DNA from: Candidatus Eiseniibacteriota bacterium
GTDB lineage: Bacteria > Eisenbacteria > RBG-16-71-46 > DASYSL01
Direction of reading: 5' to 3'
DNA: 64,000 nt
Assembly (NCBI GenBank): GCA_036003365.1
Contig: DASYSL010000086.1
Span: 1,258-65,257, forward strand
Each line of letters opens with the position of its first letter. Positions within the stretch are counted from its first letter, which is position 1. The position numbers and the translations under genes are program-made. This document shows, in pieces, positions 4,554 to 7,530 of this stretch. Under the pieces are notes generated by a model, which worked only from the letters and a program-made list of their open reading frames with translations, was not told the DNA's origin and did no database searches.

Positions 4554-5492
4554 CTAACCGCCGAAGCGCACACCCCGAATCACCTTCTCGTAGGCCTCTT
4601 CGACATGCTTCCAGTTGTGCCAGCCGAGGACGGCGCCATGGAGAACGCCGGCGGCCAGGAGGACCACCACGGCGTCGTGCGCGAGCGGCGTGAGCACGGG
4701 GCCGAAGCGCCCGGCGCCATACGCCGGGCCGAGCAGCAGAAAACCAACGATCGTGCCCAAGATGAGGCCGCTGATCTTGCCCGGGAGCGTCGAGTTGATG
4801 CGCACCGGTCCGTGCGTGACATAGAGGAACACGCCGCCCGCGAGGAAACCGCCATAGCGCAGCACTGCGAGTGCGGCGGCGAGCGAGGAGACCAAGCCTG
4901 CCGCGCGCATGGAGAGGAAGAGCGCCAAGGCGAAGATGATGTCGGTGATGGGATCGAGCACGGCGCCGAGTCCCGTCTCCTGGCGCATGGAGCGCGCCGC
5001 CCAGCCGTCGAGCACGTCGCTCGCCATGGCAGCGATGAAGATCCAGAAGGCGGCGCGCGGATGGCCGTCGAGGAGCGTGAGACAGAACGCGGGCACACTC
5101 GCCAGCCGGGCCACGGTCAGCGCCGTGGCGAGGTTGATCGCCGAAAGCGAATAGCCTTCGCGCGTGCGCAGGAGGCCGACGTGCAGCACCAGGCTGGCGG
5201 TGAGAGGGGCGAGCCACAGGCCGGTCCACACGAGCACGTGCCGCGCCGTGCCCACCGCGCCCATGCCGAGCAACACACAGCCCGCGAACGTGAGCGCGAA
5301 GAGGATGAGGCCGAGCACCAGGATCGAGCGCGCCGCACCGGGATTGGCCGAGACGTCCTTGCGGCCGCGCAGCCAGGTGCGCGAGGCATAACGGACCCAG
5401 GCGGCGAGCGAGTACTTCTGCTCTCTCAGATCCTGCAGGTAAGTCTCGATGAACACCCGGCGGCTCCTTGGGCGCGTGGCGAATCGGCGCAA
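4554..5492 (-). CDS. CDP-alcohol phosphatidyltransferase family membrane protein.
   Basis: 'DVLDGWAAR' fits the D-x2-DG-x2-AR motif, and there are multiple TM segments. Confidence 0.7.
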   Translation of the reverse strand: MRRFATRPRSRRVFIETYLQDLREQKYSLAAWVRYASRTWLRGRKDVSANPGAARSILVLGLILFALTFAGCVLLGMGAVGTARHVLVWTGLWLAPLTASLVLHVGLLRTREGYSLSAINLATALTVARLASVPAFCLTLLDGHPRAAFWIFIAAMASDVLDGWAARSMRQETGLGAVLDPITDIIFALALFLSMRAAGLVSSLAAALAVLRYGGFLAGGVFLYVTHGPVRINSTLPGKISGLILGTIVGFLLLGPAYGAGRFGPVLTPLAHDAVVVLLAAGVLHGAVLGWHNWKHVEEAYEKVIRGVRFGG

Positions 5493-5559
5493 GACAATGC
5501 GATGGTTCGATCGTGCGGATCAATGGTAACACGCGCCAAGAATTTTCTGTCATCGGCGG

Positions 5560-6762
5560 GTGCGATGCTGTCAATGGAAGAGAACCTTCGATGGTCTCCG
5601 GTTCGCCCCCGCGAACGGCATTCCCGTGGATCGTTATGATCTGACCCATCTGACCGACGACGCCGTCGATCTCGAGTGGGACCGCTCGGTCGACAACGAT
5701 CGCTCGTCGACCGCAGACATGCTCGCCAGGCTGGCCGAATACGATGCGCGCCAACTCTACCGTCGGGCCGGCTATCCATCGATGTATGCGTATTGCGTGG
5801 GCGCCAAGAATTTCTGCGAGAATTCAGCGCGCAAACGAATCCATGCAGCTCGGACAGCTCGCCGGTTTCCTGCACTCTTTGTAGCCCTGGCTGAGGGGAG
5901 GCTTCATCTCAGGGCAGTGGTGATGCTCGCTCCCCATCTCCATTCGGAGAACTTCGACGAACTGGTGCGGGCGTGTTCGAATCGGACGGCTGCCCAGATC
6001 GAGGAGATCCTGAACGGGCGTTTCGTGCGATTGGAGACCTTGAAGGAAGGAACGCGCCAGGAGTCCGCTGGCGGCGTCCCGAACGCGGAAGTCGAAAACG
6101 GCACTCCGGGCGCGTTAGGCGACTTGCCCCTTATCGACCCTTCACGCGCCCTGGGGCGCGTTGAGGAAGGGGCAGGAATTAGCCTTCAGGCCTCTCCGCA
6201 GCCCACATCTCCCCCGCGGGCATCCAGTCAAGCGCCACGCCCGGAGCCTTCCTTCTCTGTCGTGCTCGAGAAGAGCGCGCAGGAACTGCTCGAATATGCT
6301 CGCGCCCTCCTGAGCCATCGGATGCCGCTGGCGAGCGCCTCTCAAGTGATCGAGCGCGCGCTGCAAGAGCTCGTCGCCCGAGAAGAGAAGAGGAAGTTCG
6401 CCGCTACGGATCGCCCCAAGGCCCTGCGCGCGAGCCGAAGCGCGCGCCATATCCCCGCATACGTAAAGCGCGCCGTGTGGAAGCGCGATGGCGGGAGGTG
6501 CACAGCCGTCGGATCCGATGGCCATCCGTGCCATTCACGCGAATTCCTGGAATACGACCACGTTCAGCCCGTAGCTCGCGGCGGTAAAGCCACCGTGGCG
6601 ACCGTGCGGTTGCGATGTCGGGCGCACAACCAATATGAGGCGGAGCAGGCGTTCGGCGCTGATTTCATGAAGCGCAAACGTGAGCAGCGGCAATCGGGAG
6701 GAGACCATCGGCGGCCTTCCTCTGCCTCCCCAGCACCTGAGCCCAAGCACGCCCCCGGCTAG
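5560..6762 (+). CDS. DUF222-domain / HNH endonuclease (13E12-repeat-like family). Start uncertain. Lower GC and lower GC3 than its neighbours.
   Basis: C-terminal HNH motif ('HIPAYVKRAVWKRDGGRCTAVGSDGHPCHSREFLEYDHVQPVARGG...CRAHNQYEAEQ') and an N-terminal DUF222-like region. Many A/T-ending codons are visible, unlike neighbouring genes. Confidence 0.7.
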   Translation: MRCCQWKRTFDGLRFAPANGIPVDRYDLTHLTDDAVDLEWDRSVDNDRSSTADMLARLAEYDARQLYRRAGYPSMYAYCVGAKNFCENSARKRIHAARTARRFPALFVALAEGRLHLRAVVMLAPHLHSENFDELVRACSNRTAAQIEEILNGRFVRLETLKEGTRQESAGGVPNAEVENGTPGALGDLPLIDPSRALGRVEEGAGISLQASPQPTSPPRASSQAPRPEPSFSVVLEKSAQELLEYARALLSHRMPLASASQVIERALQELVAREEKRKFAATDRPKALRASRSARHIPAYVKRAVWKRDGGRCTAVGSDGHPCHSREFLEYDHVQPVARGGKATVATVRLRCRAHNQYEAEQAFGADFMKRKREQRQSGGDHRRPSSASPAPEPKHAPG

Positions 6763-6822
6763 GAGGCAGCGCGCATGACAAACGATTAGACTCCCCCGCC
6801 GGACCCCATCAAGGAGGGCACG

Positions 6823-7467
6823 GTGGCGGGTTGGCTACGGCAGGATTGGCTACAGGCGGATTGGCTGTGGGCGATCGGCGGATTCGCGGTCGGGGCGTTT
6901 TTGTTCGGGCTTCGGCGGCGCAAGGGCGAAGCACGCTCGGGCGGCGGGCCGGGCGCGGGCACGCTCGAGGAGCGGATCCATGCGTTGGGTCAGCGGCAGC
7001 GCGCGGTGCTCGAGCGGCTCTTGCGCCATGATCGCGCGCTGCGCGACCCGAACGAGAGCTTCGACGAGAAGCTGACGTTCGGCCAGCGCGCCGCGGATCG
7101 CATTGCCACGTGGGGCGGGAGCTGGACATTCATCCTGCTCTTTTTGGCGTTCTTGAGCGCGTGGATCGCGTTCAACGCCAGGAGCGCGGGGCGCTTCGAT
7201 CCGTTTCCGTTCATCCTGCTGAACCTGATCCTGTCGTGCCTCGCGGCATTGCAGGCGCCGCTGATCATGATGAGTCAGAACCGCCTGTCGGCAAAGGACC
7301 GGCACGACGCGCACCTCGATTACGAAACCAACGTGCACGCCGAGCTGGAGATCCAGGCGCTCCAGAGCAAGGTGGATCTCCTGCAAGATCAGCAGTGGGT
7401 CGAGCTCATGCGCCTGCAGGAGCGTCAGATCGAGCTCTTGGAGCGAATCGTGACGGCGGAGCGCTAG
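6823..7467 (+). CDS. DUF1003 family membrane protein.
   Basis: Two TM helices ('WTFILLFLAFLSAWIAFN', 'FPFILLNLILSCLAALQAPLIMMSQNR') plus a C-terminal coiled-coil, the typical DUF1003 architecture. Confidence 0.65.
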   Translation: MAGWLRQDWLQADWLWAIGGFAVGAFLFGLRRRKGEARSGGGPGAGTLEERIHALGQRQRAVLERLLRHDRALRDPNESFDEKLTFGQRAADRIATWGGSWTFILLFLAFLSAWIAFNARSAGRFDPFPFILLNLILSCLAALQAPLIMMSQNRLSAKDRHDAHLDYETNVHAELEIQALQSKVDLLQDQQWVELMRLQERQIELLERIVTAER

Positions 7468-7469
7468 CC

Positions 7470-7530
7470 GGGCGACGCTCGATCGTCGCCTTGCGTCGCC
7501 TTGCGTCGCCTTACATCGCTTTGCGCCGCT
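7470..7530. repeat. Hairpin (ggcgacg-ctcgat-cgtcgcc) followed by about 3.5 tandem copies of a 10-bp unit (cgccttgcgt). It lies between convergent DUF1003 and ppdK and may act as a bidirectional terminator.
   Basis: Read directly from the sequence; a 7-bp perfect stem and the tandem units are at 7478-7528. Confidence 0.45.

What the first reader, a model, noticed from the sequence alone, without database searches (positions are those of the whole stretch)
5560..6762. Compositionally atypical DUF222/HNH endonuclease gene, likely horizontally acquired
The gene has many A/T-ending codons (gat, tat, aat, cat, ttt, gta) in a genome where neighbouring genes are almost exclusively G/C-ending. It encodes an HNH nuclease of the DUF222 type, which I recall as typical of Actinobacteria, from memory and not a database check. 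It sits between a CDP-alcohol transferase and DUF1003 with no flanking integrase or repeats. Candidate selfish or defence-related nuclease.
Basis: partly seen in the sequence, partly recalled or inferred. Interest (0 to 1): 0.5.

Follow-up and report, generated by a model that had tools for sequence, protein, structure and literature searches.

The report
Old multi-copy HNH nuclease gene cassette
The low-GC3 gene is real and encodes a DNA-binding HNH nuclease from a very large, unnamed, multi-copy family of Candidatus Eisenbacteria; it was inserted between two housekeeping genes long ago and inherited vertically since, so it is an old selfish-type cassette, not a recent import from Actinobacteria.

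Summary
The gene (true start GTG 5626, 378 aa, not 5560) has GC3 0.69 against 0.86 +/- 0.04 for the window's other ORFs (z = -4.1).

- **HNH domain:** supported by PHROG HMMs, the predicted fold and invariant catalytic and zinc residues.
- **DUF222:** Pfam's DUF222 model hits none of 28 family members. The confident N-terminal domain looks like a ParB/KorB helix-turn-helix.
- **Host:** the window is a Candidatus Eisenbacteria MAG, and the family is endemic there. It has about 7,900 clusters at 50% identity, often several copies per genome.
- **Cassette:** each copy is solitary, with its own conserved promoter-like leader. A covarying hairpin with a CCCC loop sits about 20 nt before the start codon.
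- **Locus history:** close relatives keep the gene in the same place. Sister lineages have CDP-OH transferase-DUF1003-PPDK without it (L117), or PPDK next to the transferase with neither gene (L112, L113). This is an ancient insertion, since inherited vertically under purifying selection (dN/dS 0.15-0.24).
- **Low GC3:** a family-wide trait (61 of 70 loci), not a mark of recent transfer.

Most likely it is a self-regulated, homing-type selfish nuclease cassette, analogous to mycobacterial REP13E12. A domesticated host role is not excluded. Defence and RNA-guided readings found no support.

The parts
5561..5569 (+). Extended -10-like promoter box TGcGATGCT of the HNH gene
   Evidence: It aligns with the family-wide box cGTGnTAnAAT / TGCGATGAT about 45-65 nt before the start codon. 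The same kind of box precedes the CDP-OH transferase gene in L112, L110 and L117, so it looks like the general promoter type of these organisms. The strict sigma-70 scan finds nothing here. Function is inferred.
5601..5616 (+). Leader hairpin GTTCGC-CCCC-GCGAAC, with its C-run 20 nt before the start codon
   Evidence: It appears in the minimum-free-energy fold of the window leader. In the family a C-run lies at -16 to -25 in 55 dereplicated leaders, and 50 of them have a hairpin of at least 5 bp around it with differing stem sequences. Arms of the same copy pair better than arms swapped between copies (-7.35 vs -5.52 kcal/mol; 0 of 5000 permutations reach the observed value).
5626..6762 (+). 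Coding sequence of the 378-aa HTH-HNH nuclease (NCBI HEV8480214.1, locus tag VGR66_05420, 'hypothetical protein')
   Evidence: dN/dS is 0.15 against L001 and 0.24 against L002.
5626..6027 (+). N-terminal all-helical domain (residues 1-134), ParB/Spo0J/KorB-like helix-turn-helix DNA-binding fold
6028..6228 (+). Variable, predicted disordered linker (residues 135-201)
   Evidence: pLDDT is below 50. The region varies in length and sequence in alignment A1.
6271..6402 (+). Conserved helical pair (residues 216-259) preceding the nuclease domain
   Evidence: Only weak resemblances to antitoxin or ribbon-helix-helix-type proteins were found. Function unknown.
6445..6699 (+). HNH (beta-beta-alpha-metal) nuclease domain (residues 274-358), with invariant C292, C302, D311-H312, C331, H334-N335
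   Evidence: The invariant columns come from 28 sequences. PHROG HNH families match at E down to 3.7e-6. Pfam HNH matches 12 of 28 members, but the window protein is below threshold at 14.2 bits against a cut-off of 21.4. Fold matches include the Gme HNH nickase, the Cas9 HNH domain, McrA and GVE2 HNH.
5469..6799 (.). Outer limits of the inserted segment relative to the HNH-less locus L117
   Evidence: Recognisable homology between the window and the empty site L117 ends at 5468 on the left (12 nt upstream of the transferase start) and resumes at 6800 on the right (23 nt upstream of the DUF1003 start). Exact junctions cannot be recovered at this divergence.

Best explanation
The gene is one copy of an autonomous nuclease cassette family endemic to Candidatus Eisenbacteria. 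Each cassette consists of a conserved promoter-like leader plus one ORF. The ORF has an N-terminal ParB/KorB-like helix-turn-helix domain, a long flexible linker, a short helical module and a C-terminal HNH nuclease. Some members carry an extra RuvA-domain-III-like tail.

Inferred mechanism. The HTH domain recognises a specific DNA site, and the tethered HNH domain nicks or cuts nearby, the bipartite layout typical of homing endonucleases. Break-induced recombination then copies or homogenises the cassette, so the family persists and multiplies as a selfish element. Expression is probably kept low by the leader. Its hairpin, with a conserved CCCC loop, overlaps the Shine-Dalgarno sequence in most copies. 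The promoter region may also act as an operator for the protein's own HTH.

The window copy entered the divergent-promoter gap between the CDP-alcohol phosphatidyltransferase and DUF1003 genes in an ancestor of this clade. It has since been inherited vertically, evolving faster than its neighbours but under purifying selection. Its low GC3 reflects the family's own lower codon-bias equilibrium, not recent foreign origin.

Shown: architecture, conserved catalytic residues, purifying selection, insertion polymorphism, copy number, paralogue mosaicism, leader and hairpin conservation, and the family-wide GC3 deficit. Inferred: nuclease activity, DNA target, selfish spread and the hairpin's regulatory role.
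For: Architecture and nuclease.

Solitary cassette:
- No recurrent neighbouring gene appears in 80 loci.
- Upstream flanks of paralogues in unrelated contexts are similar (253 blastn pairs), while downstream flanks match only between apparent orthologues or recent paralogues (18 pairs).
- Within-genome paralogues share a unit running from about -230/-300 to about the stop codon (L012/L020, L040/L043, L021/L027, L019/L024).
- An invariant TTGAC block lies at about -235, and a -10-like box at about -55.

Copy number and size:
- The 80 loci kept come from about 46 assemblies. OY970178.1 has at least 3 copies, and JBIOKD01 and JBOHUC01 at least 4 each.
- There are 7,894 50%-identity clusters at E <= 1e-30.

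Lineage-specific expansion and gene conversion:
- Paralogues often cluster by genome in the NJ tree.
- L015/L020 are a mosaic: 92.5% identical from -1607 to +431, then 76%.

Insertion polymorphism at this locus: filled in the window, L001, L002, L109, L116 and the P0280 contig; HNH-less in L117; lacking both genes in L112 and L113. The syntenic copies form one clade.

Selection: dN/dS is 0.15-0.24.

Hairpin. In 32 of 37 leaders with an SD-like motif, at least 2 of its 4 nucleotides lie in the 3' arm.

GC3 deficit family-wide.

Analogy: REP13E12/DUF222-HNH loci of M. tuberculosis are multi-copy gene-conversion hotspots without defined function (PMC13061034, PMC10589994). From my own knowledge, the homing endonuclease I-TevI has a bipartite layout and represses its own promoter.
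Against: - No cleavage site, target-site duplication, terminal repeat or recent empty/filled pair at high identity was found, so mobility is inferred, not shown.
- The sharp unit boundaries in old paralogues could simply reflect constraint on promoter plus ORF after ordinary duplication.
- Copies are almost all intact. In my reading of the tree (not separately tested), several distinct paralogue lineages have apparent orthologues in other MAGs, for example the three copies of JANPEF01. Such persistence is unusual for purely selfish homing genes, which tend to decay, and fits a host-useful function.
- The window copy has a shortened leader of about 90 nt without the TTGAC block and no clear Shine-Dalgarno sequence, so the regulatory model fits it less well than typical members.
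- RNAalifold found no consensus structure on MAFFT alignments of the leader. The hairpin rests on my own anchored analysis.
Confidence: 0.5

Rival explanations
1. The family is a host-domesticated paralogous family. The HTH-HNH proteins would serve the cell, for example as site-specific recombination or repair nucleases working with RuvB, or as DNA-binding regulators that kept a nuclease fold. The window copy would be an ordinary, fast-evolving, weakly expressed chromosomal gene.
For: - Purifying selection persists over long divergence (dN/dS 0.15-0.24 at dS of 1 or more).
- Nearly all copies are intact.
- Several paralogue lineages have apparent syntenic orthologues in different MAGs.
- Synteny is stable in the window clade.
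- A RuvA_C-like tail occurs in 4 of 28 members.
- Low GC3 fits weak expression.
Against: - Copy number varies and expansions are lineage-specific.
- The gene is absent from sister lineages at this locus with no replacement visible there.
- There is no conserved genomic partner or operon.
- Paralogues show mosaic gene conversion.
- Each copy carries its own conserved promoter leader, which is more typical of autonomous elements.
Confidence: 0.27
2. This is the first reader's view: a recently horizontally acquired DUF222-type HNH gene of actinobacterial origin, with low GC3 as the un-ameliorated signature of a foreign donor.
For: GC3 is 0.69 against 0.86 for the background. From memory, the N-helical-domain plus C-terminal-HNH layout resembles DUF222-HNH proteins.
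Against: - Pfam DUF222 matches 0 of 28 members.
- tblastn against 72,556 plasmids matches only the C-terminal HNH-containing part, never the N-terminal domain.
- After the window-clade orthologues, the closest relatives are Eisenbacteria copies at 45-50% identity.
- The host itself is an Eisenbacterium.
- The gene is syntenic in relatives whose neighbours differ by dS 0.6-0.8.
- The GC3 deficit is family-wide and persists in the orthologues.
Confidence: 0.03
3. A stand-alone defence nuclease, such as a McrA-like type IV restriction enzyme that cuts modified phage DNA. JGI names many members this way.
For: JGI labels many members '5-methylcytosine-specific restriction endonuclease McrA'. The HNH fold resembles McrA, ScoMcrA and TagI.
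Against: - PADLOC gives no hit for the window protein. Of three other members scanned, one matched weakly, to a type II restriction-enzyme model (E 3e-4, HNH region only).
- The N-terminal domain is ParB/KorB-like, not a modified-base reader.
- There are several divergent copies per genome in unrelated contexts, with no defence-island neighbours.
- The McrA label is most likely a generic HNH (COG-level) assignment, on my own reading.
Confidence: 0.08
4. An RNA-guided nuclease of the IscB/HEARO kind, with the conserved upstream non-coding region encoding its guide RNA.
For: A weak NCBIfam hit to IscB covers the HNH region (18.8 bits). About 235 nt upstream of the ORF are conserved in most copies.
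Against: - The IscB hit is far below its cut-off of 175 bits and confined to the HNH domain.
- There is no RuvC, bridge-helix or PLMP domain.
- Rfam finds no HEARO or any other family in the window or in 10 loci.
- RNAalifold predicts no consensus structure.
- Leader folding energy is not different from control flanks (z -0.61 vs -0.11, p = 0.15).
Confidence: 0.02

Closest known systems
REP13E12 / DUF222-HNH repeat loci of Mycobacterium and other Actinobacteria
   Same: Units of about 1.2-1.6 kb are dispersed in several copies per genome. They encode a protein with an N-terminal helical domain and a C-terminal HNH. Paralogues exchange sequence by gene conversion, and no function is defined (PMC13061034, PMC10589994; here).
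   Different: The Pfam DUF222 model does not detect the N-terminal domain (0 of 28). The phylum differs (Eisenbacteria). The conserved leader with a CCCC-loop hairpin has not, to my knowledge, been described for REP13E12. A prophage attachment site, as in REP13E12, was not looked for. Superfamily-level homology of the N-domains could not be tested with these tools.
Free-standing HNH homing endonuclease genes of phages (e.g. I-HmuI and the mob genes of T-even phages), and the bipartite GIY-YIG enzyme I-TevI
   Same: They are autonomous genes with their own promoters. The nuclease domain is tethered by a flexible linker to a separate DNA-binding module. They show presence/absence polymorphism between related genomes, and I-TevI represses its own promoter (own knowledge; here).
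   Different: Those genes sit in phage genomes or introns and target one allele. Here hundreds of divergent copies sit in bacterial chromosomes in intergenic DNA. Full-length relatives are absent from the phage, viral-contig and plasmid collections. The target is unknown.
McrA-type (COG1403) HNH restriction endonucleases
   Different: There is no modified-cytosine-reader N-domain and no defence context, and the family is multi-copy.
IscB with its HEARO/omega RNA
   Same: Both have an HNH domain and conserved non-coding DNA 5' of the ORF.
   Different: There is no RuvC domain, no structured RNA and no Rfam match.

Membership tests
Pfam DUF222 (PF02720) | Match of the N-terminal region to the DUF222 profile HMM | tested here: not met
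   There is no hit for the window protein even at E <= 10, and none for the 28 aligned members at E <= 0.01. NCBI names the protein 'hypothetical protein'.
Pfam DUF222 (PF02720) | Remote (superfamily-level) homology of the N-domain to genuine DUF222 proteins | not testable with these tools
   No genuine DUF222 sequence could be obtained. Two actinobacterial 'HNH endonuclease signature motif' proteins (L118, L119) carry only HNH domains. The AlphaFold database library was unavailable.
HNH / beta-beta-alpha-metal nucleases (PF01844 clan) | Profile match to an HNH model | tested here: met
   The window protein is below threshold in Pfam (HNH 14.2 bits vs 21.4; HNH_5 14.9 vs 27.5). It matches PHROG HNH families at E 3.7e-6 to 1e-3. 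Twelve of 28 family members match Pfam HNH, best E 5e-7.
HNH / beta-beta-alpha-metal nucleases (PF01844 clan) | Catalytic His (DH), downstream His/Asn, and Cys/His zinc ligands conserved, with the HNH fold | tested here: met
   C292, C302, D311, H312, C331, H334 and N335 are invariant in 28 sequences. The model's C-terminal domain matches the Gme HNH nickase, Cas9 HNH, McrA and GVE2 HNH.
Homing endonuclease genes | Presence/absence polymorphism of the gene at an otherwise conserved locus | tested here: met
   The locus is filled in the window, L001, L002, L109 and L116. L117 lacks HNH, with 181 nt between the transferase and DUF1003. However, the empty and filled lineages are distant (transferase 84% identical).
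Homing endonuclease genes | Cleavage of the cassette-less allele and copying by repair | not testable with these tools
   This needs biochemistry or genetics. The junctions are too diverged to reconstruct a target site.
Homing endonuclease genes | Residence in a self-splicing intron or intein, or in a phage genome | tested here: not met
   The gene is intergenic and chromosomal. Only HNH-domain-level hits occur in the viral, phage and plasmid collections.
Insertion sequences / transposons | Terminal inverted repeats, target-site duplication or a recognised transposase domain | tested here: not met
   No flanking repeats occur in the window or at paralogue boundaries. There is no transposase domain and no tRNA in 60 loci.
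IscB (RNA-guided, HEARO/omega RNA) | Split RuvC domain plus HNH, reaching the NCBIfam equivalog score | tested here: not met
   The score is 18.8 bits against a cut-off of 175, over the HNH region only. No RuvC appears in the model or the HMM scans.
IscB (RNA-guided, HEARO/omega RNA) | Adjacent structured omega/HEARO RNA | tested here: not met
   Rfam finds nothing. RNAalifold predicts no pairs. Leader folding z-scores are like the control's.
McrA-like type IV restriction | N-terminal modified-DNA recognition domain and defence-system HMM match | tested here: not met
   The N-domain is ParB/KorB-like. PADLOC gives no hit for the window protein.

The most novel reading that the evidence does not exclude
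The leader plus the HTH-HNH ORF may constitute a so far undescribed class of chromosomal copy-and-paste element. In this reading the nuclease recognises a conserved feature of its own cassette or of intergenic promoter DNA, possibly the CCCC-loop hairpin or the GATTT-N-CTTGACA block. It would then drive cassette spread and homogenisation by break-induced gene conversion, in some members with help from RuvB recruited through a RuvA-domain-III tail. If so, Eisenbacteria and, by analogy, REP13E12 in mycobacteria would carry a common, unrecognised type of mobile nuclease gene.
Probability: 0.2. Interest if true: 0.6.

Novelty: new variant of a known kind. Interest (0 to 1): 0.36.

Why it matters
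For genome annotation, this gene and about 8,000 sequence clusters like it are currently 'hypothetical' or mislabelled 'McrA'. They can now be described as HTH-HNH nuclease cassettes with a recognisable leader.

For methods, the case shows that a strong GC3 deficit is not proof of recent horizontal transfer. Here it is a stable trait of a gene family that has sat in the same place while its neighbours accumulated dS of about 0.6-0.8.

Biologically, the family offers a second, phylogenetically remote system in which to ask what multi-copy N-helical-domain-HNH genes do. The mycobacterial REP13E12 loci have had no defined function since 1999.

Tried and rejected
- **DUF222 membership.** Pfam found nothing for the window protein or 28 members. 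tblastn of the full protein and of an HNH consensus against plasmids gave only hits to the C-terminal HNH-containing part. Two actinobacterial 'HNH signature motif' proteins, fetched to obtain a genuine DUF222 for comparison, turned out to have HNH domains only. This was a dead end.
- **Structured guide or regulatory RNA in the roughly 235-nt leader.** Rfam found nothing, RNAalifold predicted no pairs, and folding z-scores did not differ from control flanks (one search timed out). Only the local hairpin survives.
- **Upstream small ORF.** The conserved blocks fall in different frames relative to the start and contain stops.
- **Conserved partner genes.** None recur among 80 loci.
- **Phage or plasmid carriage.** Only HNH-domain hits were found.
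- **tRNA-linked integration.** No tRNA occurs in 60 loci.
- **Terminal repeats or target duplications.** None were found.
- **Defence system.** PADLOC was negative for the window protein.
- **A 1.6-kb upstream flank shared by L015 and L020** first looked like a larger element. It is an IS481-type transposase gene next to both copies.
- **Sequence search of solved structures** gave nothing. The afdb50 fold library was unavailable.
Full report
**1. The observation**

An intact ORF runs from 5560 to 6762 on the + strand. The biological start is GTG 5626, giving 378 aa. The 94%-identical homologue P0001, the NCBI record for this exact protein and the family alignment all begin there.

- The gene's GC3 is 0.693. 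Its four neighbours have 0.86-0.88.
- Across 33 long ORFs of the window GC3 is 0.859 +/- 0.040, so z = -4.1. A codon-adaptation index built from those ORFs gives z = -3.0.
- The deficit holds along the whole gene.
- No integrase, tRNA, terminal repeat or target duplication flanks it.

**2. What the protein is**

Pfam gives no significant hit for the window protein. DUF222 does not appear even at E <= 10, and HNH and HNH_5 are below threshold. NCBIfam gives only an 18.8-bit match of the HNH region to IscB, against a cut-off of 175. Family-level evidence still settles the C-terminal domain:
- Twelve of 28 aligned homologues match Pfam HNH.
- PHROG HNH families match the window protein at E down to 3.7e-6.
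- C292, C302, D311-H312, C331 and H334-N335 are invariant.
- The predicted fold matches the Gme HNH nickase, the Cas9 HNH domain, McrA and the GVE2 HNH.

**3. Whose gene it is**

The exact protein is HEV8480214.1, 'hypothetical protein', locus tag VGR66_05420. It comes from a Candidatus Eisenbacteria MAG, on a 71-kb contig.
- A word-indexed search found more than 2,353 relatives. The top ones are 45-50% identical over the full length, and most have no precomputed Pfam domain.
- An exhaustive profile search found 7,894 50%-identity clusters at E <= 1e-30 and 18,599 at E <= 1e-10.
The best 80 come from about 46 assemblies, nearly all Eisenbacteria, and many assemblies contribute several copies. 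Chromosome OY970178.1 has at least 3; JBIOKD01 and JBOHUC01 have at least 4 each.
- Full-length relatives are absent from the viral-contig, phage and plasmid collections, where only the HNH domain matches.

**4. The cassette**

None of the 80 loci shares the window's neighbours, and no flanking gene recurs among them.
- An all-against-all comparison of flanks found 253 similar pairs upstream of the start codon. Downstream there were 18, all between apparent orthologues or recent paralogues.
- Paralogues within one genome share a unit that begins about 230-300 nt upstream and ends at or just after the stop codon.
- The leader contains three conserved features: an invariant TTGAC preceded by GATTT at about -235, an extended -10-like box (cGTGnTAnAAT or TGCGATGAT) at about -55, and GCCCCC at a fixed -16 to -25.
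- The same -10-like box precedes the transferase gene in L112, L110 and L117, so it is probably the ordinary promoter type of these bacteria.
- The C-run sits in the loop of a hairpin whose stems differ between copies, for example GUGAC/GUCAC, GGGAC/GUCCC, GAGAC/GUCUC, CUCGAC/GUCGAG, UUUCACG/CGUGAAA, and GUUCGC/GCGAAC in the window.
- Fifty of 55 dereplicated leaders have at least 5 bp around the C-run. Arms of the same copy pair better than arms exchanged between copies (-7.35 vs -5.52 kcal/mol; 0 of 5000 permutations reach this). In 32 of 37 leaders with a Shine-Dalgarno-like motif, the motif lies partly in the 3' arm.
- The leader as a whole is not a structured RNA. Rfam finds nothing, RNAalifold predicts no pairs, and folding z-scores do not differ from control flanks.
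- The conserved blocks are not a small ORF.

The window copy keeps the -10-like box (5561-5569) and the hairpin (5601-5616). Its leader is only about 90 nt long and lacks the TTGAC block.

**5. History of this locus**

Close relatives keep the order LTD - hypothetical - DAO - PatA_N - CDP-OH transferase - [HNH] - DUF1003 - PPDK.

| Locus | Neighbour protein identity to window | HNH identity to window |
|---|---|---|
| L001 | 97-99% | 94% |
| L116 | transferase 98% (partial), DUF1003 90% | 88% |
| L002 | 74-88% (82-88% excluding DUF1003) | about 55% |
| L109 | 73-90% | about 55% |
| P0280 contig (DUF1003 73%) | not compared | HNH present |

- The HNH gene evolves faster than its neighbours in both rates. 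dS is 0.17 against 0.03-0.08, and 1.65 against 0.6-0.84. dN/dS stays at 0.15-0.24.
- In an NJ tree the syntenic copies, together with P0009 and P0012, form a single clade. P0012 lies in a different context.
- L117 lies outside that clade (transferase 84%, PatA_N 65%, DAO 64%, DUF1003 70%). It has transferase - 181 nt - DUF1003 - PPDK and no trace of the HNH gene.
- L112 and L113 have the PPDK stop followed after 60-95 nt by the transferase start, with neither gene. L110 has about 480 nt of repeats there.
- The simplest history is a stepwise filling of this gap. The HNH cassette would have entered between the divergent transferase and DUF1003 promoters in the ancestor of the window clade, followed by vertical descent.
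- Homology with the empty site ends at 5468 and resumes at 6800. The junctions themselves are no longer readable.

**6. Composition**

Across 70 family loci the HNH gene has lower GC3 than its flanking genes in 61 (mean -0.067, Wilcoxon p about 1e-10). In 38 it is below the lowest flanking gene. The window's deficit of -0.17 is at the extreme of this distribution, and it is shared by its orthologues (0.68 and 0.76). Low GC3 is therefore a persistent family trait. It fits weak expression or weak codon selection, as is common for selfish genes. It is not a signature of recent import.

**7. How it probably works**

The layout is a sequence-reading HTH domain, a long flexible tether and an HNH nuclease. 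This is the bipartite design of homing endonucleases. Several other features point to a selfish, self-regulated nuclease cassette that persists through break-induced recombination:
- The gene is autonomous and carries its own promoter.
- Copies are dispersed and cluster by genome.
- Paralogues are mosaics. L015/L020 are 92.5% identical up to +431, then 76%.
- The gene is present or absent at this locus in different lineages.
- Some members carry a RuvA-domain-III-like tail.

The closest described analogue is the REP13E12/DUF222-HNH repeat family of M. tuberculosis. It is also multi-copy, a gene-conversion hotspot and without defined function.

Against a purely selfish reading, almost all copies are intact and under purifying selection. 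Several paralogue lineages also appear to have orthologues in other MAGs. A domesticated role in recombination or regulation therefore remains a serious rival (0.27 against 0.5). Defence (0.08), recent actinobacterial transfer (0.03) and an IscB-like RNA-guided system (0.02) are poorly supported or contradicted.

**8. Verdict**

It is not a fresh foreign gene. It is a long-resident member of a very large, unannotated nuclease-cassette family with a conserved leader, a variant of a known but poorly understood kind. Interest is moderate at 0.36.

Noticed in passing
window 7484-7523: Three to four tandem copies of a 10-nt unit (CGTCGCCTTG), followed by a GC-rich inverted repeat, lie in the 63-nt gap between the convergent DUF1003 and PPDK genes. 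L109 has a different tandem repeat (GCTGCTGCGTGGGC-like) at the same place.
   Followed up: no
window 5533-5545 and 5801-5813: An exact 13-nt direct repeat, GCGCCAAGAATTT (17 of 18 nt with the next bases), occurs twice. One copy is at the probable left edge of the inserted segment. The other is inside the N-domain coding region. A chance match of this length in 3.5 kb is not very unlikely (roughly 0.05-0.1), but the position is suggestive.
   Followed up: no
window 6823-7467 (DUF1003) compared with L112, L113 and L117: DUF1003 is itself absent between PPDK and the CDP-OH transferase in L112 and L113 but present in L117. The gap therefore seems to have been filled in two steps. In L110 it holds about 480 nt of repeated, palindrome-rich sequence. 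This intergenic site looks like a recurrent landing place.
   Followed up: partly
L020 4448-5674 (-), and the matching stretch of L015: An IS481-type DDE transposase gene (rve, rve_3, LZ_Tnp_IS481) lies immediately upstream of two HNH cassettes on chromosome OY970178.1. The shared 92.5%-identical tract runs through the IS, the leader and the first 431 nt of the HNH gene. It then drops to 76%, making a recombination mosaic.
   Followed up: partly
family members P0016, P0025, P0027, P0034, P0036, P0063, P0079 etc. (alignment A1, columns about 510-560): Many family members, but not the window protein, carry a conserved C-terminal extension (EVIPWLRxLGFRADEARxAAxxC...LEERVRxAL). Pfam calls it RuvA_C in 4 of 28 members (best E 2.9e-4), which hints at an interaction with RuvB.
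   Followed up: no
L109 3750-4852 (-): The syntenic HNH copy in this metagenome contig matches in two pieces in different reading frames. This is either a frameshifted pseudogene or an assembly error. L038 (252 aa) and L059 (44-aa ORF) also look truncated.
   Followed up: no
window 5523-5531 (- strand) and 5546-5551: A divergent promoter-like pair for the CDP-OH transferase (TGTTACCAT, with ATGACA 19 nt upstream) lies on the minus strand inside the 169-nt gap shared with the HNH leader. Related loci have cGTGCTAGGAT or GTGGTAGGAT at the equivalent place.
   Followed up: no
L004-L063 (60 loci, about 560 kb): ARAGORN found no tRNA gene in any of the 60 Eisenbacteria loci around HNH cassettes. 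From my own rough estimate of typical bacterial tRNA density, about half a dozen would be expected. This may be chance or clustering of tRNA genes.
   Followed up: no
L004, L011, L059 (DASQFU01, labelled Limnocylindria), L079 (Dormiibacterota), L074 (Myxococcales): A few family copies sit in MAGs assigned to other phyla. These are either genuine inter-phylum transfers or mis-binned Eisenbacteria contigs.
   Followed up: no
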